Assembly (NCBI GenBank): GCA_900540385.1
Contig: UQFY01000011.1
Span: forward strand, 6,043 to 70,042
DNA: 64,000 nucleotides
Origin: an uncultured Mollicutes bacterium
GTDB lineage: Bacteria > Bacillota_I > Bacilli_A > RFN20 > CAG-826
Direction: 5' to 3'
Part shown: piece after piece, positions 32,412-49,021 of the stretch
Layout of the letters: the number at the start of each line of letters is the position of its first letter
How positions within the stretch are numbered: position 1 is the first letter of the stretch
Made by a program: the position numbers and the translations under genes
Notes under the pieces: generated by a model
Databases searched by the model: none
Seen by the model: the letters and a program-made list of their open reading frames with translations, nothing else
What the model was told of the DNA's origin: nothing

Positions 32412-32813
32412 TTATATTTGCATCAAATCCCGGATTTTAAAGAAGATATCTTTATCGGCTGGACACCAAGATAAAAACTCTCCTTCTTCTTTATTAATCC
32501 ATTTTTCATCCGAATGGATTCCTTTTTCAATTGTTAAGTTTCCTTCGATAGGTGTTACAAGGAAGGCGTCCATATCCAAAATAAAAGATGGATATTCATA
32601 CACTTCATTTAGTAAGAATCTCTCTACTTTTATAGTGGTTTCAAGTTCCTCTTTGATTTCACGGATGATCGCCTCTTTAGGCGTTTCACCCTCTTCGATC
32701 TTTCCACCAGGAAATTCATAGAGACCTTTGAATTCTCCATAATCTCTTTGAGCGACAAAGATACGGTTATTTTTCTTGATGAGGGCACACACGACCCGAA
32801 TTCTCTTCTTCAT
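32412..32813 (-). CDS. Nudix hydrolase (MutT/NudG-like (d)NTP pyrophosphohydrolase)
   Basis: Nudix box GGKIEEGETPKEAIIREIKEELE. Its start overlaps the 3' end of the helicase reading frame by 47 nt. Confidence 0.85.
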   Translation of the reverse strand: MKKRIRVVCALIKKNNRIFVAQRDYGEFKGLYEFPGGKIEEGETPKEAIIREIKEELETTIKVERFLLNEVYEYPSFILDMDAFLVTPIEGNLTIEKGIHSDEKWINKEEGEFLSWCPADKDIFFKIRDLMQI

Positions 32814-35604: not shown

Positions 35605-35695
35605 TCTTATCCTTGCTTTACAGAATAACCGTGCCGATCCTTTAGATCAAGCTAAATATAGAGATAGCCAAAGCTTTTCAACCGATTGAAAGGAT

Positions 35696-36235
35696 TTATT
35701 TGAAGAGCGAGTAAAAGTAAGTGGTCATTTCTATGGCGCTTTCTTTATGCTCGTGAATCACATAATCTTTTAAAAGGTCCACAAAAGCGCCAGAAAGGCA
35801 GTTTTCTAATATATCATCAGGAATATTTGGGTGTTTTATTTTAATAGAGGGCATTGCCACTCTCATAAGGTGATGAACTTCCTTTCCTAAGGTGGAATAG
35901 AAAAGATGGGAGGCACCGGAAGCAAAGATGGCGGATATTAGTTTCTCCTGTTCTTTGAAATGATAGAAGATATGCGCGGTCATTTCGCGATAATCATAGA
36001 GAGTGATATTCCCTTCCTTGGTGTGATTGGAAGAAAAAGCGTGATTAAAGATAGAAGTGCAGACGTTTCTTAAAACATCATCTTTCTTTTTATAATGAGC
36101 ATAGAAAGTGGATCGAGAAACCGTGCTTTCTAAAATAATGTCGCTAACAGAAATATCCGTATAGCTTTTCTTTTCTAATAGTCTTTCTAAGGCAGCTAAG
36201 ATCAATTCGTTCGTCTTTTCTTCTTTTTTGTTCAT
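35696..36235 (-). CDS. TetR/AcrR-family transcriptional regulator
   Basis: N-terminal HTH YTDISVSDIILESTVSRSTFYAHYKKKDDV. 179 aa. Confidence 0.85.
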   Translation of the reverse strand: MNKKEEKTNELILAALERLLEKKSYTDISVSDIILESTVSRSTFYAHYKKKDDVLRNVCTSIFNHAFSSNHTKEGNITLYDYREMTAHIFYHFKEQEKLISAIFASGASHLFYSTLGKEVHHLMRVAMPSIKIKHPNIPDDILENCLSGAFVDLLKDYVIHEHKESAIEMTTYFYSLFK

Positions 36236-36362
36236 CTTTTTATCCTCAAAATACGAATAAATATCGAATATTATGTTCTAATTATATAAAAAGAAACGAA
36301 CAAAATATTCTAAATTGTTCATCTTCATTCAAAAAAGATGAAAACATTGCTAGACTACCACA

Positions 36363-37439
36363 ATGGATATGCATAAAAGAGAGATACCATCACCATTTGA
36401 AACAAGCAAAAAGAAAGTTTTAAGCACTCTTTTTATTTTGCTTGGCGTAAGCATCCTTCTTTTTTGTCTTTCTTTCTTTATAACTCCAACGAACATGTCT
36501 ATTGATCGTTGTTTCTTTGGCTTATTTGGTAGAAGCGATGTCGCGGCAAACCGGATTATGCAGAGAATTATTCTCCCGAGGAATCTTGCCGCATTTCTCA
36601 TTGGTGGAGGGCTTTCTCTTTCTGGGCTTTTAATGCAAACCTCATTAAAGAATCCTATGGCTTCACCTGCGACACTAGGCGTTTCGAACGCGGCTGTATT
36701 TGGGGCTAACGTGATTATTCTTTGTTTGTATGGAACGAGTAGCAATTCTTTCGTCTCTGCGAGTGACTCTCCCTTTCAAACGTCGATGGTTGCTTTCCTA
36801 TTCTCTTTCCTTTGCATTCTTTTGGTTCTCTTTTTATCCTCATTTCATAAATTTCATCCAACGACCGTTGTTCTTGTTGGAATTGTTTTGGGCTCTTGTT
36901 TTCAAGCTTTGACAACTCTTTTGCAATATTTTGCAGATGATGTTGCTCTTTCCGCTATCGTGGGTTGGTCTTTTGGAAACTTAGAAAGAATCACGATGGG
37001 AGAGAATGGAATATTGGGCATTGTTTTATTCGTCTCTCTTTTATCCTTCTCTTTGCTTGGGTATCGCTTTAACGCCCTTGACGCAGGAGATGGCTTTGCT
37101 AAAAGTGTGGGGGTTCATACTTCCCTTCTACGTTTTATCTCTTTGCTTGTTGCCTCTCTTTTAGGGGCTTTATGCGTTTCTTTTTGCGGAATGATTGGTT
37201 TTGTGGGAATCATTGCCCCTCACATTATGAAAAGACTAATTGGAAGAGATCATCGTTTCCTTTTTCCAACTTCTTTCTTAGCCGGATCCTCTCTTCTTCT
37301 TGTTTGTGATATTTTTACGCGCTTGATTGGAAGAGGCACCTCTCTTCCAGTGGGTGCTATTACCGCTTTGATAGGGACACCATTGTTCTTAATCATTCTC
37401 TTCACGAAGAAAGGAGACAAATATGCTTTATCTAAATGA
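36363..37439 (+). CDS. FecCD-family iron-siderophore/cobalamin ABC permease
   Basis: ILPRNLAAFLIGGGLSLSGLLMQTSLKNPMASPATLGVSNAA is typical of FecCD. About 9-10 TM helices. Confidence 0.85.
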   Translation: MDMHKREIPSPFETSKKKVLSTLFILLGVSILLFCLSFFITPTNMSIDRCFFGLFGRSDVAANRIMQRIILPRNLAAFLIGGGLSLSGLLMQTSLKNPMASPATLGVSNAAVFGANVIILCLYGTSSNSFVSASDSPFQTSMVAFLFSFLCILLVLFLSSFHKFHPTTVVLVGIVLGSCFQALTTLLQYFADDVALSAIVGWSFGNLERITMGENGILGIVLFVSLLSFSLLGYRFNALDAGDGFAKSVGVHTSLLRFISLLVASLLGALCVSFCGMIGFVGIIAPHIMKRLIGRDHRFLFPTSFLAGSSLLLVCDIFTRLIGRGTSLPVGAITALIGTPLFLIILFTKKGDKYALSK

Positions 37440-38196
37440 CGTCTCCTTCGCTTATTCAAAACGCTCAGAACCCGTCTTAAAACATGTCTCTATTCAACTA
37501 GAGGAAGGAAAAGTAGGGGTTTTGCTAGGTCCTAATGGTGTCGGAAAGAGCACAATTATTAAGTTAATATGCGGACTTTTGAAGCTAAAAGAAGGTGAAA
37601 TTATTTTGGGTGATAAGAAGCTTAAAGAAATGAAGCTGTCCGAACGAAGCAAACTCATTTCCTCCGTTCCTCAAAATATTGAATTCTCTTCCTTAAGCGT
37701 TATGGATTCTATTCTTCTAGGGCGTCTCCCTTATTTCTATTCCTTCCCTTGCAAGTACGATAAAGAAGAAACCTTCAAAGTCATGGAGGAACTTCATATC
37801 CTTCCATTAAAGGATAGACCAGCAGATTCTCTTTCTGGGGGTGAGAAACAAATGGTCGCGATAGCTCGAGCCCTTGTTTCTAATCCGAAACTCCTTATCT
37901 TGGACGAACCAACAGCCAATCTTGACTTAAAGCATCAGGTTTTAATTTTGAAACTGCTTAAGAAGATTGCTAAAGAAAGAAAGTTGACAATCTTATTATC
38001 CTTGCATGATCTTTCCGAAGCATCCTTCCTCGGAGATACCCTCTTTTGGCTAAAGGAAGGGGAGCTTCTTTATCAAGGGGATAGCTCTTCGATTACGGAA
38101 GAAAGAATCTTTGAGACCTATGGCGTTAAAGCCAACTTAATTCAAAAAGATGATGAAACTTTCATCTCATTATTTTCAGGAGAAAAACAACAATGA
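37423..38196 (+). CDS. Iron/B12-type ABC transporter ATP-binding protein
   Basis: GPNGVGKST, LSGGEKQM, LILDEPTANLD. Confidence 0.9.
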   Translation: MLYLNDVSFAYSKRSEPVLKHVSIQLEEGKVGVLLGPNGVGKSTIIKLICGLLKLKEGEIILGDKKLKEMKLSERSKLISSVPQNIEFSSLSVMDSILLGRLPYFYSFPCKYDKEETFKVMEELHILPLKDRPADSLSGGEKQMVAIARALVSNPKLLILDEPTANLDLKHQVLILKLLKKIAKERKLTILLSLHDLSEASFLGDTLFWLKEGELLYQGDSSSITEERIFETYGVKANLIQKDDETFISLFSGEKQQ

Positions 38197-39374
38197 AAAA
38201 ACAATTCCTTTGGCTTCTTTTAGCCTCAAGTCTCATTTCTTGTGGAGGAGGACAAGAAAGTTCTAGCGAAACTTCTCAAGAAGAAATTCTCGTTAGTGAC
38301 GGTATCGGAAGAGAAAATAGTTACCTTCCAGGTTCCTATTCCCGTATCGCTTGCGTCGGTGCTGGCGCTCTTCGCTTATATTCCTATGTTGGTGAACTTA
38401 ATAAACTCGTTGGCGTAGAAGATATCGATAATCCAAGCAAAAGAGAAGAGAAAACCCATCCATTCGAAGGGGTTGCAAGGCCTTATTATGACGCTAACAA
38501 AGAAGCTTTTAGAAACCTTCCTTCCCTTGGAGTAGGAGGGCCGGTTGCTAATCAAAGTGGTCCTAACCTCACTCTTTTAACAAGCCTTGCTCCTGATTTA
38601 GTCATTTCTGATTTTGAAACAGTTGAACAAGCCAAAGCCATTGAAAATGCTACAGGTGCCAAAGTATTCACCATCCGTTATGGCAAGAAGGCCGTCTATG
38701 ATGAAACCATCGTTTCTGTTTTAACTTCCTTAGGCAAAGTTCTTGACCGTAATGAAAGAGCGAAAACCTTAACGGACTACATCTCTTCTTCCATTACGGA
38801 ATTAAAAATAATGACAAAAAACGTAAAGGAAGAAGATAAGCCTCTTACTTATGTTGGGGGAATTGGAAACTGGGGACAAAAAGATTATCTTGCCACCCAT
38901 AGTGGTTATCCAATGTTTGAAGTTGCCAATATTAAAAACGTCCTTTCAGAAGTTCCATTAAGCGCGGCTGGTCAACAAGATATCTCCAAAGCCACTTTTG
39001 AAGAGCTTGCCCCTAAAATGGACAAACTCATTTTAGACGCGGCGGGAATGAAACAAACCATTCAAGCCTATCACACGGATAAGCATGTTTTTGATAACGT
39101 CAAAGCAGTAACTTCAGGCGAAGTCTATCTTCAAATGCCATATAACGCCTATTATACAAATCTCGAAATCTCTCTTATGAATGGTTATTTTGATGCCTAT
39201 GCCGTCTATCCTGAGCTCTTCAAGGACTTTGATTTAGAAAAGAAATATTCGGAAATCTTAAAGACCTTTGTAGGAAAGGATACTTACAACGAAGAAAAGG
39301 GAATGTCCGGCTCTTATGGCGGATATCAAAAAATCAGTGATTTAAAGAAATTCTGCGAAGAGCATATTCAATAA
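38193..39374 (+). CDS. ABC substrate-binding lipoprotein (Peripla_BP_2-like, iron complex/cobalamin type)
   Basis: Lipobox SLISCGGG. ATGA overlap with the ATPase gene. Operon context with FecCD. Confidence 0.75.
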   Translation: MKKQFLWLLLASSLISCGGGQESSSETSQEEILVSDGIGRENSYLPGSYSRIACVGAGALRLYSYVGELNKLVGVEDIDNPSKREEKTHPFEGVARPYYDANKEAFRNLPSLGVGGPVANQSGPNLTLLTSLAPDLVISDFETVEQAKAIENATGAKVFTIRYGKKAVYDETIVSVLTSLGKVLDRNERAKTLTDYISSSITELKIMTKNVKEEDKPLTYVGGIGNWGQKDYLATHSGYPMFEVANIKNVLSEVPLSAAGQQDISKATFEELAPKMDKLILDAAGMKQTIQAYHTDKHVFDNVKAVTSGEVYLQMPYNAYYTNLEISLMNGYFDAYAVYPELFKDFDLEKKYSEILKTFVGKDTYNEEKGMSGSYGGYQKISDLKKFCEEHIQ

Positions 39375-39425
39375 ACCTCTCATTCTTTTTCTTCCAGAAA
39401 AACCTATAATATCCGAGGAGAATAT

Positions 39426-40037
39426 ATGTCGCATCCTTGGAAACATTTAAGGCTCATCACCTCACATCGCCATCTTGTTATTAAAAATGCCTTCCACATG
39501 GGCATTTTTTGGCATGCTTTGAAACATGATTTAAGCAAATATTCCTATACGGAATTTCATACTTCTGCCAAATATTACGCTGGGAATCACTCCCCGGTGT
39601 TCGAAGAGAGAATCCATAATCAGTATTTCTCACGTATTTGTCAACACCACACGAGAAGAAATCCTCATCATTGGGAATATTGGACGGATTTCTTTTGTGG
39701 AAGGATCCTGATGAAAACCATGCCATGGGTATACGCTACAGAATACGTATGTGATGTATTGAGTGCTTCCTATACCTATAATCCAAAAGAATTCACCCCC
39801 GAAAGTGGTCTTCGTTATTTTAATGCCCATAAAGATCGTTATTTTATGACGACGGCAAGCAAAGAATATATCACATGGTGCTTAGAAAAATATGCTCAAA
39901 CAGGTTGGAAAGAACTCAAAAAGAAAAACACTCAAAAGAAATATCAGGAAATTATTTCTTCTTATCCGGATGTCGAGCTTTTCGAGACAAACAAAGCCAG
40001 CTCTTCTTTGCCACCTTTGCTAAGCAAAAACAAGTGA
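39426..40037 (+). CDS. DUF5662-like protein (His-rich, often mis-annotated as catalase)
   Basis: WKHLRLITSHRHLVIKNAF...HDLSKYSYTEF...YYAGNHSP...HHTRRNPHHWEYW matches my recollection of the DUF5662 pattern. Confidence 0.5.
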   Translation: MSHPWKHLRLITSHRHLVIKNAFHMGIFWHALKHDLSKYSYTEFHTSAKYYAGNHSPVFEERIHNQYFSRICQHHTRRNPHHWEYWTDFFCGRILMKTMPWVYATEYVCDVLSASYTYNPKEFTPESGLRYFNAHKDRYFMTTASKEYITWCLEKYAQTGWKELKKKNTQKKYQEIISSYPDVELFETNKASSSLPPLLSKNK

Positions 40038-40053
40038 TATAAAATATTGAAGT

Positions 40054-40479
40054 ATGGCAATTCGAAACAAAATATTAATCATCGGAGCCGGAAGACTTGG
40101 CTCCATCATCGCCGATCGTGCCTCCTCAAGGGGAGAAAACGTCATCGTCTTGGACGAAAATGATTCGTCCTTCCGTAAATTAGATGAGGCGTTTACTGGT
40201 TTTAAAGTCACAGGTGACGCAACCGATATCGCCCTTTTAAAACAAGATTGTTATATCGATTCCGTCGAGGAAGTAGTCATCGTAACAGGAAATGACAATA
40301 CCAATCTTTTCTTAGCCCATTTATGCGCGATTATTTTTAAAATTCCTAAGGTATACGTACGTTTTGATGACCCAGATAAAGATATTCTTATCAATGGCGT
40401 TCCCAATGTGAAGGCTGTTTATCCATCGGATTTAAGCGCCAATAAATTCTTCCAAATCGAAGCGGAGGGCAACAAATAA
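40054..40479 (+). CDS. TrkA-N (NAD-binding) potassium-uptake regulatory subunit
   Basis: ILIIGAGRLGSIIA is a Rossmann GxGxxG, followed by VIVLDEN. 141 aa. Confidence 0.8.
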   Translation: MAIRNKILIIGAGRLGSIIADRASSRGENVIVLDENDSSFRKLDEAFTGFKVTGDATDIALLKQDCYIDSVEEVVIVTGNDNTNLFLAHLCAIIFKIPKVYVRFDDPDKDILINGVPNVKAVYPSDLSANKFFQIEAEGNK

Positions 40480-41399
40480 TGATTGTCGTTATTGCAAATG
40501 GTAACCTTGAAGCTGCCTACGTTATTGATTCTTTTAAAGAAGACAAACATAACAAAATCATCGTCATTAACTCCGATAAAGAAGTCGCGGAATATTTGAT
40601 GAAACGCCAACACGTTTCCGTTTATGTCGGAAACCCTTGGAGAATCTACGCTCTTGAAGAGGCAGGTGTTTACGACGCGGATCTATTTATTTCTCTTTCC
40701 GATAACGATACAGACAATTACGTATCTTGTATCCTTGCTAAGAAAGTCTTTAACGTTCGTAAATGCATCTGCGTCGTTAAAAACCCAGACAACGTTGAAA
40801 TCTATAAGAAACTCGGAATCGATTCCGTTATTTCTTCCACCTACCTTTTAACACAGAATATCAAAACAGAGTCTTTGGAAGGAAACCTCATCCGTTCGAT
40901 GAATTTAGATTCCAACAAGATTGTGATGGTGGAGGCGACCCTCTTATCCAAATACCGTATCTGCAATAAAGCCATTATGGATATTCATTTCCCTCCTTAT
41001 GCGAATATTGCTTATATCATGCGTGATAATGAATTCATCATCCCAAAAGGTAACGTTGTTTTAAAACCACGCGACACTCTTGTTATTGCCTGCGATAAAG
41101 CGGATGAAAATAGTTTAAAGAAATATCTCACCCAAAGAGCCTCGGCAAGAGATCTTCAAAAGAATATTGCTTCGCAGATTGAAAAATCCTTAGTGAAAAT
41201 CAAAAACACCGAAGTAAAAGAAGAAGCCCCTCTTCCTAAAGAAACGGAAGAAGCCCCTAAAGTAGTAGAGGAAGCCCCTCTTCCTCAGGAAGAAAAAGAG
41301 GAGGCCCCTGTCGCAAATAAGAGCGAAAAGAAGAAAGTAGCCCCTAAGAAAACAACAACAAAGAAAACTTCTTCAACCAACAAGAAGAAAACCATATGA
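40479..41399 (+). CDS. TrkA-like regulatory subunit (degenerate N domain + TrkA-C) with EEAP-repeat/Lys-rich C-terminal tail
   Basis: RCK-like fold without a glycine loop (MIVVIANGNLEAAY). TrkA-C-like GNVVLKPRDTLVIA. Tail is EEAPLPKETEEAPKVVEEAPLPQEEKEEAP followed by a K-rich stretch. Confidence 0.65.
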   Translation: MIVVIANGNLEAAYVIDSFKEDKHNKIIVINSDKEVAEYLMKRQHVSVYVGNPWRIYALEEAGVYDADLFISLSDNDTDNYVSCILAKKVFNVRKCICVVKNPDNVEIYKKLGIDSVISSTYLLTQNIKTESLEGNLIRSMNLDSNKIVMVEATLLSKYRICNKAIMDIHFPPYANIAYIMRDNEFIIPKGNVVLKPRDTLVIACDKADENSLKKYLTQRASARDLQKNIASQIEKSLVKIKNTEVKEEAPLPKETEEAPKVVEEAPLPQEEKEEAPVANKSEKKKVAPKKTTTKKTSSTNKKKTI

Positions 41400-43087
41400 A
41401 CAAAGTAAGAGAAGCAAAAGGAATTCGTTTGATTCTTGGCTATTTTGGCCTCTTCATGATTGTAGAAGGCCTAGTCACTATTTTTCCTTTGCTCATTTTA
41501 GCCTTCTATCCAAAAGAATGGGAATGTTATCTGGATTTTGTTATTCCAGGCGTTTCCTATATGTTTTTAGGTCTCTTTATCTATTTATGCACGACTGCCT
41601 TCCGGAAAAAGGGAAAACTCCAAAAGAACGAAGACTCTCTTTTGCTTGTTCTTCTTTGGCTTTCCGCTTTGCTTATTGGGGCAATACCATTTTATCTAAC
41701 GGCATTCCCAGAGTTTAATAATGGCAATGAAGCAATTAATTTAGGGATGTCCTTCACGGATTCTTTCTTTGAATCCACCTCTGGATATTCGGCGACAGGA
41801 TTAACCGTTTTCCCTAAAAAAGCCTTCTTAACGGGCGTTGATTCTTCGGAATATCAATGGGCCCATGTCTTTTTATTCCATCGAGCGGTTATGCAATTTG
41901 TTGGTGGGGTTGGTCTTGTTTTGCTTGTAGCTTCGGTTATTTCAAGCAAAAACAACTTCAAGCTTTTCTTTGCTGAAGGCCATAATGACCGCCTTCTCCC
42001 AAATTTAGGGAAGAACGCTAAACTCATTTTTGGTATTTATTTTGGCTGGATTGTAGTTGGAAGCCTTGCTCTTTGGATAGCGGGAATGACACCATTTGAT
42101 TCTTTCTGCCATGCGACCGCCGCTCTTGCCACAGGTGGTTTCTCTACACGTTATTCTTCCATTATGTTCTATTCCGAAGCGACGTATTCTTCTTTTACGA
42201 ATGGAAACCTTCTTTATACGGGAAACGCTTTAGCGATCGAGGGAATCACGGTTGTTTTAATGCTTGCAGGCGCAACGAATTTCGTTTTGCATACCTTCCT
42301 TCTTACAGGAAAAATAAAGAGCTTCTCAAAGGATGTGGAAATTAAAACAGCGACAGCTTTGATTATTTTCTCTACCATCCTGACTGCCGTTTTAACCTTT
42401 AGTGAGCATACTTATTATTATGAAGAAATGGAGAACATTTCTATTTGGTTATCCCTTCGTTACAATTTCTATAATATTGTCTCTTCGATTACCACAACCG
42501 GATTCACCAACTTCCCAAATCTTGCTTATCTAGGGCATTTCTCTATCTTTATCGGTTTGATTGTCATGTCTATTGGCGGAGGTATGGGTTCGACGGCAGG
42601 TGCTTTGAAACAATACCGTTTTGCCTTACTGTTTAAAGAATTCTCTTCCTCCTTTAAAAACCGTAACTCTTCTGATAGGTATCTTCATACCAATCCGATT
42701 ACGCGTTTGGGACAGACAAAAGAAGTGGATGAGGAAAGCGTTAAGGAAGCAACCGATTATGCCATTCTCTATATCAGTTTTATCTTGCTAGGGACGATTG
42801 GTTTGTTATGTCTTAAAAACATGAACCTGGAAGAAGCTGCATACGAATGGGGAACCTCTCTTTCTGGCACAGGCATTAGCATTATTGACTTTGCTTCCTA
42901 TAAGGCAAATAATGGAATTGTCCATTATAACGTCCTTCTTTGGCTACTTGATGTGGCAATGTTCTTAGGACGTTTGGAAATCTTGCCAGCCTTCTATGGC
43001 TTTAGGAGATTCTTTATCACCCCATTTGAAGAACTAGCCAAACATCATCAGAAAATGAAACACAAAAAACACGCATTGGAGGAATAA
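41396..43087 (+). CDS. TrkH/KtrB-family potassium transporter membrane subunit
   Basis: Multiple M1-P-M2 repeats with SGYSATGLTV, TGGFS and TTTGFTN selectivity-filter-like motifs. ATGA overlap with the upstream gene. Confidence 0.85.
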   Translation: MNKVREAKGIRLILGYFGLFMIVEGLVTIFPLLILAFYPKEWECYLDFVIPGVSYMFLGLFIYLCTTAFRKKGKLQKNEDSLLLVLLWLSALLIGAIPFYLTAFPEFNNGNEAINLGMSFTDSFFESTSGYSATGLTVFPKKAFLTGVDSSEYQWAHVFLFHRAVMQFVGGVGLVLLVASVISSKNNFKLFFAEGHNDRLLPNLGKNAKLIFGIYFGWIVVGSLALWIAGMTPFDSFCHATAALATGGFSTRYSSIMFYSEATYSSFTNGNLLYTGNALAIEGITVVLMLAGATNFVLHTFLLTGKIKSFSKDVEIKTATALIIFSTILTAVLTFSEHTYYYEEMENISIWLSLRYNFYNIVSSITTTGFTNFPNLAYLGHFSIFIGLIVMSIGGGMGSTAGALKQYRFALLFKEFSSSFKNRNSSDRYLHTNPITRLGQTKEVDEESVKEATDYAILYISFILLGTIGLLCLKNMNLEEAAYEWGTSLSGTGISIIDFASYKANNGIVHYNVLLWLLDVAMFLGRLEILPAFYGFRRFFITPFEELAKHHQKMKHKKHALEE

Positions 43088-43089
43088 AT

Positions 43090-43506
43090 ATGTTAATTGA
43101 TAACATCAAAAAGGCCAATATGATGGCCATGAAAGAAAAGAATCAGGCGAAAAGAAGTGCTTACTCTTCTGTTATCTCTCGTTACCAACTCTTAAAGAGC
43201 AATGATCCTAGCAAGGAAATTTCGGATACCGATGTCCTTTCTTTGATTCAAAAAATCGTGAAAGAACTTGATGAAGAATTAGATTCTTATCAAAAGGCCG
43301 GAAGAGAAGAAAGCGTCCAAGAAATCCAAAAACAAAAAGACGCTTTAAAAGAATTTGTCCCAGCCCAGCTTTCCGAAGAAGAGATCAAAACCATCATTCT
43401 TTCCTTACCAGATCGCTCTATCCCACTTGTAATGAAGCATTTTAGCATGAATTATCGTGGAAAAGTCGATATGTCCCTTGTAAACAAGGTTTTAAAAAGC
43501 TTATAA
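43090..43506 (+). CDS. yqeY: GatB/YqeY domain protein
   Basis: N-terminal IKKANMMAMKEKNQAKRSAYSSVIS and 138-aa length are typical of YqeY. Confidence 0.8.
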   Translation: MLIDNIKKANMMAMKEKNQAKRSAYSSVISRYQLLKSNDPSKEISDTDVLSLIQKIVKELDEELDSYQKAGREESVQEIQKQKDALKEFVPAQLSEEEIKTIILSLPDRSIPLVMKHFSMNYRGKVDMSLVNKVLKSL

Positions 43507-43561
43507 TACGTAAGCCCTTTAAGGGCATAACCCAAGAGCTTATTAGCGATAATAAGCCCCT

Positions 43562-43635
43562 AGGAGAATGGTTCAATGGTAGAACAGCGGTCTCCAAAAC
43601 CGTTAATGAGGGTTCGATTCCTTCTTCTCCTGCCA
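43562..43635 (+). tRNA. tRNA-Trp (CCA)
   Basis: AGGAGAA acceptor stem, D arm GTTCAATGGTAGAAC, anticodon loop CTCCAAA, T loop GGTTCGATTCC, 3' TTCTCCTGCCA. Confidence 0.9.
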
Positions 43636-43647
43636 TTTAGCAAATTC

Positions 43648-43677
43648 GCACTTTCCGCACCAAGGAGAGTGCTTTTT
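43648..43677 (+). terminator. Terminator after tRNA-Trp
   Basis: GCACTTTCC-GCACCAA-GGAGAGTGC followed by T5. Confidence 0.7.
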
Positions 43678-43766
43678 CTTTAAAAAATAGGGGATTTTGG
43701 CTCAAAAATGAGTCTTTTTCCGTTTTGTATCGCTTCAAATCGTACTAGTTAATCAGACCTGAAATT

Positions 43767-43823
43767 CTAATAGTGCGCTTTTCTACTATTAGAGCGCTTT
43801 TTCTCTATTAGTGCGCTTTTCCT
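43767..43823. repeat. Three tandem 19-bp direct repeats (CTAWTAGWGCGCTTTTYYT)
   Basis: Units at 43767-43785, 43786-43804 and 43805-43823: ctaatagtgcgcttttcta / ctattagagcgctttttct / ctattagtgcgcttttcct. Confidence 0.85.
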
Positions 43824-43859
43824 CTTGACTGGCTCTCTTTTTAGAGCGAGCAATTGATA

Positions 43860-44387
43860 ATGATGAAGAGATTCGTGTTTAGAAAAAGCTGGGACGGCTA
43901 CTTCGATTGGATAGCCAACATAAGCAAGGCGAGGAACATCATATCGTCTTATAGGGCAGCGGGCGAATGCATGAAAAAGGGCCCCGATCACATCTTTGCT
44001 TACCATGAGGCGATAAGGGTATACAACAATTACCTTGCGTTGAAATCGATGCTGAATGATAGGCAAGCCAATCATTTGGAGCTTAGGAGCAAGCACAAGA
44101 TACCCGAATGGGGATCGATATCCTCGGAAGAGCGAGACGAGATGTATGAGAAGTGGTTGCAGATTGAGTTCCCAAATGATTCCGTTCCTTTGGAATGCCA
44201 TACCGCCGAGGAGATAGGCGCCGCGATAAAAGAAGCCAGGGTAAACGATGGCAGATCTATGACCAAAGTCGCACAGTTGCTCGACATAAGTTTCAACACA
44301 TACAAATGCTATGAAAGCGGTAGGAGAATGATCCCTGCCAATACGCTTCTGATGTTAGAAAAGTTATACTGCGTCAAATTCTCTTAA
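43860..44387 (+). CDS. XRE-family HTH protein with unknown N-terminal domain (G+C-richer foreign codon usage)
   Basis: C-terminal IGAAIKEARVNDGRSMTKVAQLLDISFNTYKCYESGRRMIPANTLLMLEKLY is an HTH_3-like helix-turn-helix. Start is ambiguous (TTG 43854, ATG 43860 or 43863). Confidence 0.6.
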   Translation: MMKRFVFRKSWDGYFDWIANISKARNIISSYRAAGECMKKGPDHIFAYHEAIRVYNNYLALKSMLNDRQANHLELRSKHKIPEWGSISSEERDEMYEKWLQIEFPNDSVPLECHTAEEIGAAIKEARVNDGRSMTKVAQLLDISFNTYKCYESGRRMIPANTLLMLEKLYCVKFS

Positions 44388-44464
44388 ATTTTATAGATAG
44401 ACATATTGACATATTTAGATGACATAACTTGATTTTATGCACTTTTTTCAATATAATATAAAAT

Positions 44465-46120
44465 ATGAAACGCGGCGGAAAAAGAGAGGGTTCTGGAAGA
44501 AAACCAATTGTTGGGAAAGACATAAAGATAAAATTGCCTTTTGAAACAATTGATACTATTGAACGCCTTTATGGAGGCGATTCATTATCCGATAAAATTC
44601 GTGAATCCATTTCTTCGGGAATTAGATCAAGCTTGAATAACTATGGTGTTGTTTACACCCCATCTTTTTTATCTGAATTCGTTGCATGGCTTTGCAAAAG
44701 GTACTTTGACTCAAGTAAAGAGTCGCTTGTTATCTTTGATCCTGCTTGTGGCGAATGCTCCTTGCTTGAGGCTGCTTCAAAACAATTTACAGAAGGGAAG
44801 CGACAAATCAAACTCATAGGTAACGATGTCGACAATCATTACGTTCAAATTGCGAACAATGAAGGCATTACTTTTTTTAATTATGATGCATTGTTTCCAG
44901 ATGCCAAACTAAGACCGGAAAAGTTTTGGAAAAAGAAAACTGGCAATATTGATTTAATAATTGAAAACCCGCCTTGGTCAGGTGATAAGATCTATAAAAA
45001 AACAGAGTTACAAAAAAATAACTATGTCCTTGGAGAAGGGCAATATGATGCCTTTTCATTATTTATTGAAATGTCGCTTCGAATAGCTGATGAAGGTACG
45101 ATTTGTGCTTTTATTGTCCCTGATTCCATTTTCACTTCAGAAGACGATTCAACTCGCAAATACATCCTTAATCATTCAAACATTCTTGCTATAGCAAGAC
45201 TTGGCGAAAAACTTTTTCCGTCCGTCCATAGATCGACAGCTGTCGTTGTTTGTCAAAAAGGCAGAAAGATTGAACACAATGTCGAATGCTTTAGGCTTCT
45301 AACCGAAGATAAAAAGAACGTTTTAAATTCAAAGGATAATCTAATTAATTTGTTTGAAAAAAAGTTGCACATTGTGCCAGAAAAGAGGTTTGTTGACAGT
45401 GGTTATGTTTTTGATATTGACACAACAGACAACGATGTTTCTGTTTTATCAAAAATTAAGAAAGGATCTAGTTCTCTATCGGAAAAATTCACATTTGGGA
45501 GAGGGGTTGAAATCTCAAAAAAGGGAAACCAAGTCAAGTGCCCACATTGTGGAATAATTCAGCCGTTCTTAGGTTCTTCTAAAACTAAAAAATGTCAACG
45601 ATGCGGCGAAGAATTTGATGTTCAAGACAACATTTTTGAAATGATGATTGATAATAAAAAAAGCGGTTTTTCACCAATTTTGGTTGGAGAGAATATTCAA
45701 CGTTATTACATTAAAGGGCACAAATATGTACTTCCAAAAATGGAAGGCATTAACTACAAAGAGGATGATCTCTACAAGGGAGCAAAGATTTTAGTTAGGA
45801 AAACTGGACTAGGTATAAAAGCATCTTATGATGGCGGCGATCATGAAACATTTGATTCTAAACAAGGGTATCGCTATGTGGAGGCTCACCATTTGATTCC
45901 AATGAAAGCACAAAAGGACTTTCCAAATATAAATCTCGATAGAACTGAAAATATCGTTGCTCTTTGCCCGACGTGTCATCGAGCGGTTCATCTTGGGACA
46001 AAGGAAGAAAAAATGAAACATCTTAAACCACTATATGACGAAAGAATGCCTTTGTTGCAACAGATTTATCCTGATTTTAGTTTGACGTTTGAAGATTTAA
46101 TTAGGGAATACTATCGATAG
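44465..46120 (+). CDS. RHH-like N-terminus + gamma-class N6-adenine DNA methyltransferase (Eco57I/TaqI-like) + Zn-ribbon + C-terminal HNH nuclease, single polypeptide
   Basis: GGKREGSGRKP...IKLPFETIDTIERL (RHH-like). VYTP; motif I FDPACGECS; motif IV ENPPWSG. CPHCG...CQRCG. HNH region VEAHHLIPM...NIVALCPTCHRAVH. Confidence 0.8.
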   Translation: MKRGGKREGSGRKPIVGKDIKIKLPFETIDTIERLYGGDSLSDKIRESISSGIRSSLNNYGVVYTPSFLSEFVAWLCKRYFDSSKESLVIFDPACGECSLLEAASKQFTEGKRQIKLIGNDVDNHYVQIANNEGITFFNYDALFPDAKLRPEKFWKKKTGNIDLIIENPPWSGDKIYKKTELQKNNYVLGEGQYDAFSLFIEMSLRIADEGTICAFIVPDSIFTSEDDSTRKYILNHSNILAIARLGEKLFPSVHRSTAVVVCQKGRKIEHNVECFRLLTEDKKNVLNSKDNLINLFEKKLHIVPEKRFVDSGYVFDIDTTDNDVSVLSKIKKGSSSLSEKFTFGRGVEISKKGNQVKCPHCGIIQPFLGSSKTKKCQRCGEEFDVQDNIFEMMIDNKKSGFSPILVGENIQRYYIKGHKYVLPKMEGINYKEDDLYKGAKILVRKTGLGIKASYDGGDHETFDSKQGYRYVEAHHLIPMKAQKDFPNINLDRTENIVALCPTCHRAVHLGTKEEKMKHLKPLYDERMPLLQQIYPDFSLTFEDLIREYYR

Positions 46121-46221
46121 ACATCAAACAACAAGATTGATACTCCATATGGAGTATTTTTCTTTTTTGCAATTTTTTTAATTTTTTTCCGGACAAAAGA
46201 CCATTTTGTGAAAAGGTATAT

Positions 46222-46608
46222 ATGGGAGGAACTCTCGGAAAGGAAATCAAAACGATGAATGAAGAAGAAAGAAAAATGAGGATCTTCGCGATCCATAAAG
46301 ACAAGAAGGGCGAGCAAGCGATGGTGGACATCACCGATTTGGTCGAGGCAAGGAAAATCGAGTTGGAGAAGCAGAAGGAGTTGGAGAGGCCGATCCGCTA
46401 CTGCAGGAACTGTGGGAAGAGGATGGAGTACGGCTATTTCTATTGCTCCAAGGAATGCTGCGACGAGTATAGGAAGAAAAACAGGAAGAAGGAGAAGGAT
46501 GAGGAAAGAGTTTGCCCGGTATGCGGAAAGACTTTCATGGTAGAGAAATGGAGGAAGCAAGTCTGCTGCTCCAAATCATGCGCGAACAGGCATAAGAAAA
46601 TGGGGTAG
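46222..46608 (+). CDS. Small basic protein with two FCS/TRASH-like zinc-ribbon motifs
   Basis: CRNCGKRMEYGYFYCSKECC and CPVCGKTF...VCCSKSC. AAG/GAG/AGG-rich codon usage unlike the host genes. The antisense ORF 46111-46560 is a mirror artefact. Confidence 0.55.
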   Translation: MGGTLGKEIKTMNEEERKMRIFAIHKDKKGEQAMVDITDLVEARKIELEKQKELERPIRYCRNCGKRMEYGYFYCSKECCDEYRKKNRKKEKDEERVCPVCGKTFMVEKWRKQVCCSKSCANRHKKMG

Positions 46609-46663
46609 TGTCATTTTTGAAAAAGAGTGTCATTTCCAAAAAAGAGTGTCATTGTATCATTTC
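46607..46663. repeat. Three direct AGTGTCATT-containing repeats with 19-bp period
   Basis: AGTGTCATT starts at 46607, 46626 and 46645. Units 1 and 2 also share the AAAAAG tail. Confidence 0.8.
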
Positions 46664-46667
46664 TATA

Positions 46668-48341
46668 CGAGGCGGGACCCCGGACAAAAAGTTGGACCAT
46701 CCGAATGGTTACATAAATGTATACTAATGATCAAAAAATACATGCAATTGAGATTGTTAAGAAGTGCAAAGGTATTATTAATAATTGTTAGGGTATCCTG
46801 ATAGCAGAGATACTTTAAAGCTGTGGTATAAAAATTTCCAAGAAGATAATAATAAAATCACAAAAACTCCGCGTTATAGCGATAAGGAAATTGATAAGGC
46901 AGTTTCCTATTATTTGGAGTGCAAAAACATTCAAAAAACTATTGATGATTTAGGCTACCCAGACTCAAGAATGACGTTATGGAGATGGATTAAATCACAG
47001 GACATCAATATTTCTAATAAACGTGGTAGAGTTTCGTCGCTTGACGAAGAGGCAAAATCATCAATCATCTTAGAATATCTAAATTCCGATGAAACTATGC
47101 TAAAATTCTCATTAGAAAAAGGCATTGCTACCTCTACATTAAAAGGATGGCTTGATGCCTATAATCCAAAAAAGGAGGAAGTCTCTATGCCGAAAGAAGA
47201 AAGCAATAATGTCGATGAAACAGTTATTCCTCCTCGCAGTGATCAAGAAGAAATAGACGAACTTAAAAAGGAAATTGCTAAATTAAAAGCGGAAAAGATA
47301 GAAGCAAATCGTAAGACCAAAGAAGCTGAAGCAGAGCTCAAATTAGCAAAAGCCAAATTAGCGGAAACTCAACTAGAATATGACATCTTAGAAAAGGCGG
47401 CAGAACCATTAAAAAAAGTTAATGGCATTAATATCAAAACTCTTAAAAACAAGGAGAAGGCCATCGTTATTAATGCCTTAAGAAGTAAGTATAAGTTAGC
47501 AGAGCTGCTTAAATCTCTAGAGATGGCCAAATCATCATATGAATATCAAGTAAAAGCTCTTAACCATGATAAATATCAAGAGTTAAGACCTATAATCAAA
47601 CAAATATTCGATGATAGTTATCAAGCATATGGTTCAGAAAGAATATATGGTGAATTAAAAAATCAAGGAATCACAGTTTCTGAAAAAGTTATTAGAAGAT
47701 TAATGAAAGAAGAAAATATCCATCCATTTGTTCCTAGAATGAAGAAATATTCTTCTTATCAAGGAGAAATATCTCCAGAAGTTACTGATTTATATAAGCA
47801 CGACTTTAAAGCGGATGGACCATATAAGAAGCTAGTAACAGATATTACTGAATTCTCACTTAGAGATGGTAAAGTATATCTATCTCCAATGATTGATTTA
47901 TACGATGGATGTCAATTAATTGGAAGATAGGATATTCTCCAAATAAAGAATTAACTAACTCCATGTTAATAGAACTACATAACATCATTCCTAGCGATGC
48001 TAAACCCATCATCCATAGTGACAGAGGTTGCCATTATCGAATCCCTGATTGGATTAATCTCATGGAAGAATATGGTTATACAAGATCAATGTCCAGAAAG
48101 GGATGTTCCCCGGATAATGCAGCGTGTGAAGGATTCTTCGGAATAATGAAAAGAGAATTCTTCCATAATCATGATTGGGGTAATGCGACAAGGGAAGAAT
48201 TCATAAAAGAATTAGACAAGTACTTAACTTGGTTTAAAATAAAGAGAATAAAGGAAAGGTTAGGATATTTAAGTCCAACAGAATATCGTTCTAGAGCAAG
48301 TCTCTAAAATGGTACGAAAAAATGTCCGGACTCCCGGCTTG
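46668..48341 (+). mobile_element. IS3-family insertion sequence (degenerate copy)
   Basis: Imperfect terminal inverted repeats share the core GGGA..CCGGACA (left about 46668-46686, right about 48323-48341, roughly 15 of 19 matches). Encodes HTH/leucine-zipper OrfA-like and rve (DDE) OrfB-like sequence. Confidence 0.65.
46717..48307 (+). pseudogene. IS3-family transposase, reading frame broken at about 46786 and about 47908
   Basis: MYTNDQKIHAIEIVKK... (ATG 46717) stops at TAG and continues in another frame as LGYPDSRDTL. Coiled coil EIDELKKEIAKLKAEK. rve motifs HSDRGCHY and SMSRKGCSPDNAACEGFFG lie in a third segment after IDLYDG. An A7 run sits at 47411-47417. Confidence 0.7.
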
Positions 48342-48357
48342 CCATATTGAAACAACA

Positions 48358-48388
48358 GGATTGATACCAAAAATATCAGTCCTTTTTT
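48358..48388 (+). terminator. Orphan terminator-like hairpin right of the IS
   Basis: GGATTGATA-CCAAAAA-TATCAGTCC followed by T6. No intact gene lies upstream of it. Confidence 0.45.
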
Positions 48389-48553
48389 CATTTTATAGGG
48401 CTGTTTCGCTTATTTTAGACATAAATCGCTTATTATCAGCGTCAAGTTTATATAGGGCCTCATCTTATTTTTTGATACATGGAGGAACGAAAAAATATAA
48501 ATTGCTATAAATCATATTAGAAGTAAAAATAAATAGTGATAGTAGGAGAAAAT

Positions 48554-49021
48554 ATGGAACAAAAGAATTTGATGGTAAGAAAAGCGACCCCAAAGGACAT
48601 GGGCCTTCTTTATGAAATGATTAATGGTTTGGCAACATATGAGAAACGTCCAGAAGACATGACAGGGTCAATTAAGATGCTGAAATATTTTCTTTTCGAA
48701 AAGAAAATTGCCACTGCGGTTATAGCTGAAATAGATAATAAACCTATCGGTTATGCCATTTATTATCCAACGTTTGCTTCTTTTGCAGCCAAAATGAATG
48801 CCTATATAGAAGACCTATTCATAAAGCTCGAATATCGAGGCAAAGGCTTTGGAAAAGAGCTCTTTCACAAACTTTTAGAAATGATAAAAGAAGAGGGCTA
48901 TTCGAAATTAGAATGGAGTTGCCTAGATTGGAATACTCCTTCCATCGAATTCTATAAAAAGCTTGGTGCAAAAGAAGAAACAGGAAGAGTCTATTTTGAA
49001 TACGATCCGAAGAACGATTGA
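48554..49021 (+). CDS. GNAT-family N-acetyltransferase
   Basis: The acetyl-CoA-binding region YRGKGFGKELF has the Q/RxxGxG/A-like motif. AGGAG RBS before ATG 48554. Confidence 0.85.
   Translation: MEQKNLMVRKATPKDMGLLYEMINGLATYEKRPEDMTGSIKMLKYFLFEKKIATAVIAEIDNKPIGYAIYYPTFASFAAKMNAYIEDLFIKLEYRGKGFGKELFHKLLEMIKEEGYSKLEWSCLDWNTPSIEFYKKLGAKEETGRVYFEYDPKND

What the first reader, a model, noticed from the sequence alone, without database searches (positions are those of the whole stretch)
44465..46120. Four-module single-chain enzyme: RHH-like head, N6A methyltransferase, Zn-ribbon-containing TRD and C-terminal HNH nuclease
The ORF has a phage/plasmid-type GGKREGSGRKP plus RHH-like N-terminus and gamma-class MTase motifs (VYTP, FDPACGE, NPPW). 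It also has a TaqI_C-like target-recognition region interrupted by CPHCG/CQRCG, and then a complete HNH (AHH...CPTCHRAVH). Known Type IIG/IIL fusion enzymes that I recall use an N-terminal PD-(D/E)XK nuclease. An MTase with a C-terminal HNH and a built-in controller-like DNA-binding head would be an atypical self-contained restriction-modification or defence enzyme. Alternatively it is a deletion chimera of adjacent M and R genes; the junction ...ASYDGGDH|ETFDSKQGYRYVEAHH is abrupt.
Basis: partly seen in the sequence, partly recalled or inferred. Interest (0 to 1): 0.65.

Follow-up and report, generated by a model that had tools for sequence, protein, structure and literature searches.

The report
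Deletion-fused remnant of a restriction-modification operon
The apparent four-module methyltransferase-nuclease is an accident: a recent 2,366-bp deletion joined the front of a methyltransferase gene, in frame, to the last 93 codons of a restriction-nuclease gene, so this is an ordinary dead restriction-modification system and not a new kind of enzyme.

Summary
It is a deletion chimera, not an evolved single-chain enzyme.

- **Intact allele exists.** A metagenomic contig (L006) matches the window at 100.000% over 11,375 bp left of the junction and 99.96% over 2,556 bp right of it. It carries HTH gene, M1 (590 aa, gamma-class N6A methyltransferase with full TaqI_C), M2 (350 aa, D12/Dam-class) and R (402 aa, B3-like recognition domain plus HNH).
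- **Exact deletion.** The window lacks 2,366 bp between two copies of the 8-bp repeat TGGCGGCG. One copy remains at 45832-45839.
- **The product.** M1 residues 1-458 are joined in frame to R residues 310-402.
- **What was lost.** The last 132 residues of M1 (half of TaqI_C and the GENEWKSHPY motif), all of M2, and 77% of R, including its DNA-recognition domain and the start of its HNH module.
- **No other example.** None of the other 119 listed homologues (567 significant) carries HNH.

The chimera is probably still expressed but inactive. Interest is low.

The parts
44465..46120 (+). Chimeric 551-aa ORF: M1 residues 1-458 joined in frame to R residues 310-402
   Evidence: ORF list. BLASTP against intact M1 (P0121) gives 458/458 identical residues, then the match stops. 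The tail is identical to the end of the R gene in L006.
44465..44635 (+). N-terminal head, aa 1-57 (GGKREGSGRKP, then two predicted helices). It is inherited from M1 and may bind DNA.
   Evidence: Conserved in the closest M1 clade (P0002-P0005, P0121), absent from the wider family, and replaced by an XRE HTH in P0042. No Pfam hit. Low-confidence helices at 26-35 and 41-50.
44636..45286 (+). Gamma-class N6-adenine methyltransferase catalytic domain, aa 58-274 (motifs VYTP, FDPACGE, NPPW). It is intact.
   Evidence: Pfam N6_Mtase 69.4 bits and Eco57I 58.8 bits. PDB matches to M.BseCI and M.TaqI. AlphaFold2 pLDDT is about 80-95 over this domain.
45512..45634 (+). Zinc ribbon, aa 350-390 (C359, C362, C377, C380). 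It is a conserved part of the M1 family's recognition region.
   Evidence: The four Cys are invariant in alignments A1 and A2. Weak Pfam zinc-ribbon matches.
45674..45835 (+). First half only of the TaqI_C target-recognition domain, aa 404-457
   Evidence: The fusion matches profile positions 2-57 of 118 at 24.2 bits, below the 26.5 cut-off. Intact P0121 matches positions 2-118 of 118 at 61.9 bits.
45832..45839 (+). Deletion junction: the single remaining copy of the 8-bp direct repeat TGGCGGCG
   Evidence: In L006 the repeat lies at 11368-11375 (in M1) and 13734-13741 (in R), 2,366 bp apart. The left alignment ends at window 45839 and the right alignment begins at 45832.
45839..46120 (+). Last 93 codons and stop of the HNH restriction-nuclease gene R (parent residues 310-402). 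The HNH motif is at aa 470-509, which is nt 45872-45991.
   Evidence: 100% nucleotide identity to the R 3' end in L005-L008. Pfam HNH 28.4 bits on the tail alone. The parent's alignment to McrA begins at R aa 268, upstream of the breakpoint.
43854..44387 (+). Upstream HTH_3 (XRE-type) gene of the cassette, a putative controller protein. It is intact.
   Evidence: Pfam HTH_3 at aa 125-172. The same gene is present in the intact loci L005-L008, and a comparable gene lies upstream in L004.
44429..44457 (+). Promoter-like site (TTGATT-17-TATAAT) just upstream of the chimeric ORF
   Evidence: Consensus scan, 10 of 12 positions matched. This is a consensus match only; the number of sites in the region is no higher than in shuffles.
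46139..46158 (+). Terminator-like hairpin followed by a T run, just after the stop codon (the original end of R)
   Evidence: Consensus scan. Terminator-like sites are enriched in the region: 11 found against 2.1 expected.
46222..46608 (+). 128-aa Cys-rich ORF that travels with the cassette
   Evidence: Weak DUF2116 treble-clef match. A 128-aa ORF follows R in L005-L008 and in the distant loci L012 and L013.
46785..48307 (+). IS3-family transposase, split into 381-aa and 132-aa ORFs, downstream of the cassette
   Evidence: Pfam HTH_21, rve and rve_2. 100% identical in L005-L007.
43562..43635 (+). tRNA-Trp(CCA), the left boundary of the variable island that holds the cassette
   Evidence: ARAGORN. 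Synteny with related species L015, L016, L019, L020 and L026 ends at 43635-43643.

Best explanation
The ORF is a recent in-frame deletion chimera and marks the death of a Type II (IIS-like) restriction-modification cassette.

**Ancestral state (shown).** The island next to tRNA-Trp carried these genes:
- An HTH regulator gene.
- M1, a 590-aa gamma-class N6-adenine methyltransferase with a zinc ribbon and a full TaqI_C domain.
- M2, a 350-aa D12/Dam-class N6-adenine methyltransferase.
- R, a 402-aa nuclease with an N-terminal B3-like DNA-recognition domain, a linker and a C-terminal HNH module.

**The event (deletion and repeats shown; mechanism inferred).** Slippage or illegitimate recombination between two copies of the 8-bp repeat TGGCGGCG, 2,366 bp apart, removed three things:
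- The last 132 codons of M1.
- All of M2.
- The first 309 codons of R.

R is in the +2 frame relative to M1, and 2,366 is congruent to 2 modulo 3. The remnants therefore read through as one 551-aa ORF.

**Consequences (inferred).**
- The chimera keeps M1's promoter-like site and R's terminator-like hairpin, so it is probably still made.
- It should not methylate a specific site. Half of its target-recognition domain is gone, including the most conserved GENEWKSHPY(I/V)TK motif.
- It should not restrict. The nuclease's recognition domain and the first part of the HNH module are gone.
- Losing R's recognition domain in the same event as M2 explains why the cell survived losing protective methylation.
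For: 1. P0121 belongs to the same 90%-identity cluster as the window protein. It is 590 aa, is 458/458 identical to the window protein, and then continues as a normal TaqI_C domain.
2. Its contigs L005-L008 are syntenic with the window and carry M1-M2-R.
3. L006 is 100.000% identical to window 34465-45839 and 99.96% identical to 45832-48386. A 2,366-bp segment is absent from the window, bounded by TGGCGGCG at both ends.
4. The same M1-M2-R(HNH) order occurs in distant relatives with 48-60% identical proteins (L001-L004, L012, L014), so the intact form is ancestral.
5. Apart from the window's own protein, none of the 120 listed M1 homologues (567 significant) has an HNH domain. All cover only 72-82% of the query.
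6. The tail aligns with the last roughly 92 residues of R proteins from the other loci.
7. TaqI_C drops from 61.9 bits over the full profile to 24.2 bits over half the profile, which is below the cut-off.
Against: - No experiment shows that the chimera is inactive. Its catalytic methyltransferase domain and the H-N-H catalytic residues are intact, and the deletion is too recent for decay mutations to have accumulated (no substitutions in about 14 kb compared with L006).
- The contigs that carry the exact chimera could not be inspected. Its independent occurrence rests only on the database record of 3 contigs from 2 sources.
Confidence: 0.95

Rival explanations
1. This is a genuine, evolved single-chain restriction-modification or defence enzyme: a DNA-binding head, an N6A methyltransferase, a recognition domain and a C-terminal HNH that methylates self DNA and cleaves foreign DNA.
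For: All four sequence modules are recognisable in one uninterrupted ORF that has a promoter-like site and a terminator-like hairpin.
Against: - The architecture is found in no other homologue.
- The intact three-gene parent exists at 100% flanking identity.
- The recognition domain is cut in half.
- The HNH part is only the last 93 of the roughly 150 residues of the nuclease module, and it lacks the nuclease's own DNA-recognition domain.
Confidence: 0.02
2. The deletion is an assembly or sequencing artefact, and the organism really carries the intact M1-M2-R operon.
For: The source is probably a metagenome-derived or draft assembly. The contigs carrying the exact chimera could not be retrieved for inspection.
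Against: - An 8-bp repeat is far shorter than assembler k-mers, so it cannot cause a collapse of 2.4 kb of unique sequence.
- The exact 551-aa protein is recorded on 3 contigs from two sources, NCBI and ENA.
- The junction has the clean signature of a microhomology deletion.
Confidence: 0.03
3. The chimera is accidental but keeps a partial activity. Examples would be operator binding and autoregulation through the N-terminal head, weak or relaxed-specificity adenine methylation, or non-specific nicking by the HNH remnant.
For: The methyltransferase core is intact and confidently modelled. The HNH catalytic motif still scores above the Pfam cut-off on its own. Expression signals are retained.
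Against: - The most conserved part of the recognition domain is missing.
- Residues 406-511 are modelled with pLDDT below 50. This is weak evidence, because the alignment used does not cover the tail correctly.
- There is no conservation of the fusion that would indicate selection.
Confidence: 0.08

Closest known systems
Intact allele of the same locus: M1 (P0121, 590 aa), M2 (350 aa) and R (P0122, 401-402 aa) on contigs L005-L008
   Same: 100% identical over chimera residues 1-458 (M1) and 459-551 (R tail). The chromosomal context is the same: TrkA/TrkH/YqeY, tRNA-Trp, HTH gene, 128-aa ORF, IS3 and GNAT.
   Different: The window lacks the 2,366 bp that hold the M1 3' end, all of M2 and the R 5' end.
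Gamma-class N6-adenine DNA methyltransferases with a TaqI_C recognition domain (M.TaqI, M.BseCI)
   Same: The catalytic domain and motif order are shared: VYTP, then FDPACGE, then NPPW, with the recognition domain at the C-terminus. PDB sequence matches are 7qw5 (M.BseCI, E=1.6e-13) and M.TaqI.
   Different: The recognition domain is truncated after profile position 57 of 118. The family-specific zinc ribbon and the N-terminal head are additions of this clade.
McrA / ScoMcrA-type HNH nuclease domains
   Same: The ββα-Me catalytic motif (EAHH...N...CPxCH) is shared. Sequence match to E. coli McrA, 6ghc. Fold match of the parent R to ScoMcrA, 5zmm.
   Different: In the chimera the part of the module upstream of the β-hairpin is deleted. 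That part comprises the helices and the conserved Cys aligned to the first Cys of McrA's CENC. The parent R sits in an operon with two methyltransferases, which suggests it cuts unmodified DNA rather than acting as a modification-dependent Type IV enzyme. That is an inference from context.
LlaJI-type restriction-modification systems: two methyltransferases, a McrB-like R1 with an N-terminal B3 specificity domain, and R2 (PMC1459862; PMC7680126 citing Hosford & Chappie 2018)
   Same: - Wider relatives of M1 sit in M1-M2-R1(AAA_5)-R2(RE_LlaJI) cassettes.
- The N-terminal ~200 residues of the parent R are 46-53% identical to the N-termini of those R1 proteins.
- That domain is modelled as a B3-like fold.
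   Different: - The parent here uses a single HNH nuclease instead of the R1/R2 GTPase-nuclease pair.
- Its methyltransferases are N6-adenine types, whereas LlaJI has two 5mC methyltransferases.
- The window itself retains none of the recognition domain.
BfiI and UbaLAI (Type II enzymes built from a nuclease domain plus a B3-like recognition domain)
   Same: The parent R has the same logic: a B3-like sequence reader tethered to a non-specific nuclease module. Foldseek matches are 2c1l, 3zi5 and 5o63, with probability 0.91-0.99.
   Different: The nuclease here is HNH, not the PLD type of BfiI, and the domain order is reversed. The fold matches are weak (E of 4e-3 to 1.4e-2). None of this survives in the window.
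Type IIG / IIL single-chain restriction-methylation enzymes (Eco57I, MmeI, BpuSI)
   Same: The methyltransferase domain is related (Pfam Eco57I; PDB 3s1s BpuSI at E=3.3e-6). The chimera superficially has nuclease and methyltransferase in one chain.
   Different: By established knowledge, those enzymes have an N-terminal PD-(D/E)XK nuclease, a complete recognition domain and a conserved architecture. Here the fusion is a one-off deletion product with a C-terminal nuclease fragment.

Membership tests
Single-chain (Type IIG/IIL-like) restriction-modification enzyme | Nuclease, methyltransferase and recognition domains in one polypeptide, as an architecture conserved among homologues | tested here: not met
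   Only the window's own protein combines N6_Mtase with HNH among the 120 listed hits (567 significant). All others are 440-610-aa methyltransferases with full TaqI_C.
Single-chain (Type IIG/IIL-like) restriction-modification enzyme | A complete target-recognition domain | tested here: not met
   TaqI_C matches profile positions 2-57 of 118 at 24.2 bits (cut-off 26.5) in the chimera. Intact P0121 matches 2-118 at 61.9 bits.
Gamma-class N6-adenine DNA methyltransferase (Pfam N6_Mtase / Eco57I) | AdoMet-binding motif I (FxPxCG) and catalytic motif IV (NPPW/Y) in gamma order | tested here: met
   FDPACGE at 91-97 and NPPW at 168-171. N6_Mtase scores 69.4 bits against a cut-off of 20.4.
Gamma-class N6-adenine DNA methyltransferase (Pfam N6_Mtase / Eco57I) | Methyltransferase activity on a specific DNA site | not testable with these tools
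   This needs methylome data or an enzyme assay. Loss of half the recognition domain predicts no specific activity.
HNH nuclease (PF01844 / PF13391) | The ββα-Me catalytic motif with His, Asn and His plus the C-terminal CxxC(H) metal ligands | tested here: met
   HNH scores 28.3-28.4 bits (cut-off 21.4) and HNH_2 22.3-24.5 bits (cut-off 21) at aa 470-509.
HNH nuclease (PF01844 / PF13391) | The complete nuclease module as found in the parent family (about 150 residues, from 'DDxxV...SNNRxP' to the C-terminus, including the conserved Cys before the β-hairpin) | tested here: not met
   The chimera starts at parent residue 310. The parent's alignment to McrA starts at residue 268, and the conserved 'Y(I/A/V)C(Q/E/D)L' Cys lies upstream of the breakpoint.
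Type II restriction-modification system with two strand-specific methyltransferases and one nuclease (the parent cassette) | Presence of M1, M2 and a nuclease with its DNA-recognition domain | tested here: not met
   In the window M2 is absent, R residues 1-309 are absent and M1 is truncated. All three genes are intact in L005-L008.
LlaJI-type restriction-modification system | A McrB-like AAA+ GTPase subunit R1 and a RE_LlaJI nuclease subunit R2 | tested here: not met
   These are present in the wider relatives L009-L011. They are absent from the window and from its intact parent, which shares only the methyltransferase pair and the R1-type N-terminal domain.
Ribbon-helix-helix DNA-binding domain (the N-terminal head) | A β-strand followed by two helices, recognisable by profile or fold | tested here: inconclusive
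   No Pfam match at E<=10 for aa 1-59. AlphaFold2 gives two helices (26-35, 41-50) at pLDDT of about 48-61 and no strand. A strand is expected only in a dimer.
Controller (C) protein of restriction-modification systems (upstream gene 43854-44387) | A small HTH protein encoded upstream that binds a C-box operator | tested here: inconclusive
   HTH_3 matches at aa 125-172. The protein is 177 aa, longer than typical C proteins. No operator search was done.

The most novel reading that the evidence does not exclude
The accidental chimera is expressed and has gained a new activity. One possibility is an orphan adenine methyltransferase with relaxed specificity. Another is a methyltransferase-tethered HNH nickase. 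It could also keep regulating the cassette promoter through its N-terminal head. In any of these cases the deletion would be a first step toward a new fused enzyme rather than plain decay.
Probability: 0.04. Interest if true: 0.45.

Novelty: already known. Interest (0 to 1): 0.1.

Why it matters
It matters mainly as a caution. An uninterrupted ORF with several recognisable domains can be a days-old deletion product rather than a designed architecture, and one comparison with a near-identical strain settles the question.

The locus is also a clean example of how a bacterium can lose a restriction-modification system with two methyltransferases without killing itself. A single microhomology deletion removes the nuclease's DNA-recognition domain together with the methyltransferase genes.

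The more interesting biology lies in the intact parent, which is not in the window. There, a B3-like recognition domain shared with LlaJI-type McrB-like subunits is attached to a simple HNH nuclease.

Tried and rejected
- **Looking up the exact chimera's contigs**. Nothing was on record, so its independent occurrence could not be inspected.
- **Exact 28-mer left of the junction, shared by both alleles.** It gave no match in the GTDB species representatives or in the JGI metagenomes. No named genome or prevalence estimate was obtained that way. The junction itself was therefore not scanned, since it contains the same bases.
- **Organism name.** Related loci found with TrkH carry unreliable record titles, such as 'Escherichia coli ... 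cleanbin'. The credible ones say Bacillales bacterium UBA743 or uncultured Erysipelotrichaceae. No species name is claimed.
- **Pfam on the isolated N-terminal head.** No match, so RHH stays unverified.
- **AlphaFold2 of the chimera**. The low confidence for aa 406-511 is only weak evidence of misfolding. The alignment supplied contained methyltransferase homologues whose recognition domain was forced against the HNH tail.
- **Was the repeat special?** The intact cassette has at least 60 families of direct repeats built from 8-bp exact seeds, so TGGCGGCG is ordinary microhomology.
- **IS3-mediated deletion.** Rejected. The IS is about 660 bp downstream and 100% identical in the intact alleles, and the breakpoints lie inside M1 and R.
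- **Parent R as a Type IV (McrA-like) modification-dependent enzyme**, as one source annotates a homologue. Judged less likely for three reasons. Its start overlaps the M2 gene, it always follows two methyltransferases, and its N-domain is shared with LlaJI-type R1, which is the sole specificity-determining subunit of a system that restricts unmethylated DNA (PMC1459862). This was not tested.
Full report
**Observation.** The window holds an ATG-initiated ORF of 551 codons at 44465..46120 on the + strand. Pfam finds N6_Mtase (aa 58-274, 69.4 bits), Eco57I (58.8 bits) and HNH (aa 470-509, 28.3 bits, cut-off 21.4). It also finds weak zinc-ribbon matches around aa 350-390. TaqI_C matches only profile positions 2-57 of 118, at 24.2 bits, below the 26.5-bit cut-off. 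NCBIfam and PADLOC see only generic Type II, Type I or PglX-like methyltransferase similarity plus a short HNH match. In the PDB the methyltransferase part resembles M.BseCI and M.TaqI, and the tail resembles E. coli McrA.

**Homologues share only the methyltransferase part.** A search of the 5.8-billion-protein collection gave 567 significant hits. The 120 listed cover only 72-82% of the query. Apart from the window's own protein, all are methyltransferases of about 440-610 aa with a full TaqI_C domain, and none has HNH. In the alignment, similarity runs through ...KILVRKTGLGIKA..D..G and then stops. The homologues continue for about 130 residues: QTVY...NSRVVYY...GENEWKSHPYITKQ.... In the loci of the closest relatives (48-60% identity) the gene order is M1 (gamma-class N6A methyltransferase, about 600 aa), then M2 (D12-class methyltransferase, about 350 aa), then R (HNH protein, about 375-395 aa). 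The last roughly 92 residues of those R proteins align with the query's tail.

**The decisive comparison.**
- The 90%-identity cluster of the window protein has a second member, P0121, of 590 aa.
- P0121 is 458/458 identical to the query and then continues as a normal TaqI_C domain. It matches profile positions 2-118 of 118 at 61.9 bits.
- Its contigs L005-L008 are syntenic with the window. The order is FecCD/ABC transporter, DUF5662, TrkA, TrkH, YqeY, HTH gene, M1, M2, R, a 128-aa ORF, an IS3 transposase and a GNAT gene.
- L006 is 100.000% identical to window 34465-45839 (11,375 bp) and 99.96% identical to window 45832-48386.
- The two alignments overlap by 8 bp. TGGCGGCG occurs in L006 at 11368-11375 (inside M1) and 13734-13741 (inside R), and once in the window at 45832-45839.
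- The window therefore lacks 2,366 bp. R lies in the +2 frame relative to M1, and 2,366 is congruent to 2 modulo 3, so the two remnants read through.
- The chimera is M1 residues 1-458 (...ASYDGG) plus R residues 310-402 (DHETF...EYYR).

**What was lost.**
- M1 residues 459-590, which hold the second half of TaqI_C, the family's most conserved recognition-domain motif and a C-terminal helical tail.
- The whole 350-aa M2.
- R residues 1-309.

**The parent nuclease.** R is modular.
- Its N-terminal ~200 residues are 46-53% identical to the N-termini of McrB-family AAA_5 proteins.
- Those proteins sit in M1-M2-R1(AAA_5)-R2(RE_LlaJI) cassettes next to homologues of M1. These are LlaJI-type systems.
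- In LlaJI, R1 is the sole specificity subunit (PMC1459862). The H. pylori R1 N-terminal domain is a B3 fold (PMC7680126, citing Hosford & Chappie 2018).
- An AlphaFold2 model of the parent R has mean pLDDT 77. Its N-domain gives Foldseek matches to the B3-type recognition domains of BfiI and UbaLAI and to plant B3 factors. Its C-terminus matches the HNH domain of ScoMcrA. The fold matches are weak (E of 4e-3 to 4e-2), but they agree with the literature.
- The HNH module of this family is about 150 residues and also occurs behind other N-domains (P0132, P0136, P0138, P0155). The parent's alignment to McrA starts at residue 268, 42 residues upstream of the breakpoint.
- The chimera therefore keeps the catalytic β-hairpin and helix and the C-terminal CPTCH. 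It lacks the upstream helices, the conserved Cys of 'YICQL' and all of the DNA-recognition domain.

**Mechanism and consequence.** The deletion, the repeats, the frames and the ancestry of the intact form are shown by the sequence comparisons. The rest is inference.
- The event was a microhomology-mediated deletion, by replication slippage or illegitimate recombination.
- The chimera is probably still expressed. A TTGATT-17-TATAAT site lies at 44429-44457 and a hairpin with a T run lies at 46139-46158.
- It probably has neither specific methyltransferase activity nor restriction activity.
- An AlphaFold2 model of the chimera is confident for the methyltransferase core and below pLDDT 50 for aa 406-511. 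The alignment used was not appropriate for the tail, so this is weak support.
- The event is very recent. There are no substitutions in 11.4 kb on the left and a single 1-bp indel in 2.6 kb on the right. Absence of decay mutations therefore says nothing about selection.
- Removing R's recognition domain in the same step as M2 explains how the cell tolerated the loss of protective methylation.

- The GGxRxGSGRK head followed by two predicted helices is conserved in the closest M1 clade (P0002-P0005, P0121). It is absent from the wider family and is replaced by an XRE HTH in P0042. It is plausibly a DNA-binding, autoregulatory extension of M1. It has no Pfam match, so 'RHH' remains unverified.
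- The four zinc-ribbon cysteines are invariant across the family. They are a normal part of the M1 recognition region.

**Context.**
- Synteny with related species ends at the 3' end of tRNA-Trp, at window 43635-43643. The cassette therefore lies in a variable island.
- The island is 99.9-100% identical among strains whose flanking TrkH and YqeY genes differ by about 2%.
- The organism is an uncultured gut-type member of the Bacilli, related to 'Bacillales bacterium UBA743' and to Erysipelotrichaceae metagenome-assembled genomes.

**Verdict.** The primary interpretation, a novel self-contained four-module enzyme, is refuted. This is an ordinary inactivated restriction-modification locus. Interest is low (0.1). 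The residual chance that the chimera has a useful activity is a few per cent.

Noticed in passing
window 32767-35604 (- strand); stop codon at 34303-34305: The PLDc_2 / DEAD-helicase / DUF3427 gene is split by an in-frame TGA into 433-aa and 503-aa ORFs. Related species L015 and L016 have Cys codons (TGT, TGC) at that position. The contigs of L005 and L006 record an unbroken 944-aa product. This would be a second defence-like gene inactivated in the same strain, or a sequencing error.
   Followed up: partly
L006 12814-14022 (parent R, not in the window); L009-L011: The parent nuclease re-uses the N-terminal, B3-like recognition domain of LlaJI-type McrB-like R1 subunits (46-53% identity) on a simple HNH nuclease. 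The methyltransferase pair (gamma N6A plus D12 class) is shared between the HNH-type and the R1/R2-type cassettes. This nuclease-platform swap may deserve its own look.
   Followed up: partly
window 43562-49021 compared with L005 and L007: The island from tRNA-Trp to the GNAT gene is 99.9-100% identical between strains. The adjacent TrkH and YqeY genes differ by about 2%. This suggests recent spread or recombination of the island within the species.
   Followed up: no
window 43635-43643; L015 12240-20796; L016 12244-14383: Synteny with related species stops exactly at the 3' end of tRNA-Trp. L015 carries different cargo there: a DUF2971 protein and a 666-aa protein with EF-Tu domains 2 and 3. 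L016 has only about 2 kb there. This is a variable integration hotspot.
   Followed up: partly
window 46785-48307: The IS3-family transposase is split into 381-aa and 132-aa ORFs in the window and in L005-L007. The corresponding region in L008, 97% identical at the nucleotide level, is called as 257-aa and 261-aa genes. The copy in the window may carry a frameshift within the catalytic region.
   Followed up: no
window 46222-46608: A 128-aa Cys-rich ORF with a weak DUF2116 treble-clef match follows the nuclease gene here. A 128-aa ORF also follows it in the distant cassettes L012 and L013, which sit on an element with a MobL relaxase and, in L013, an integrase. It may be an unrecognised accessory gene of the cassette.
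   Followed up: no
P0042 (homologue, not in the window): One M1 homologue carries an XRE-type HTH fused at its N-terminus where the window's clade has the GGxRxGSGRK head. This suggests that interchangeable DNA-binding heads regulate this methyltransferase family.
   Followed up: no
L015, L017-L022 and L026 (GTDB records): Several record titles of closely related contigs name unrelated organisms, including Escherichia coli, Prevotella, Bacteroides uniformis and Faecalibacterium. Yet these contigs are 81-97% identical in TrkH to this low-GC Bacilli-type genome. These public MAG records appear to be mislabelled.
   Followed up: no
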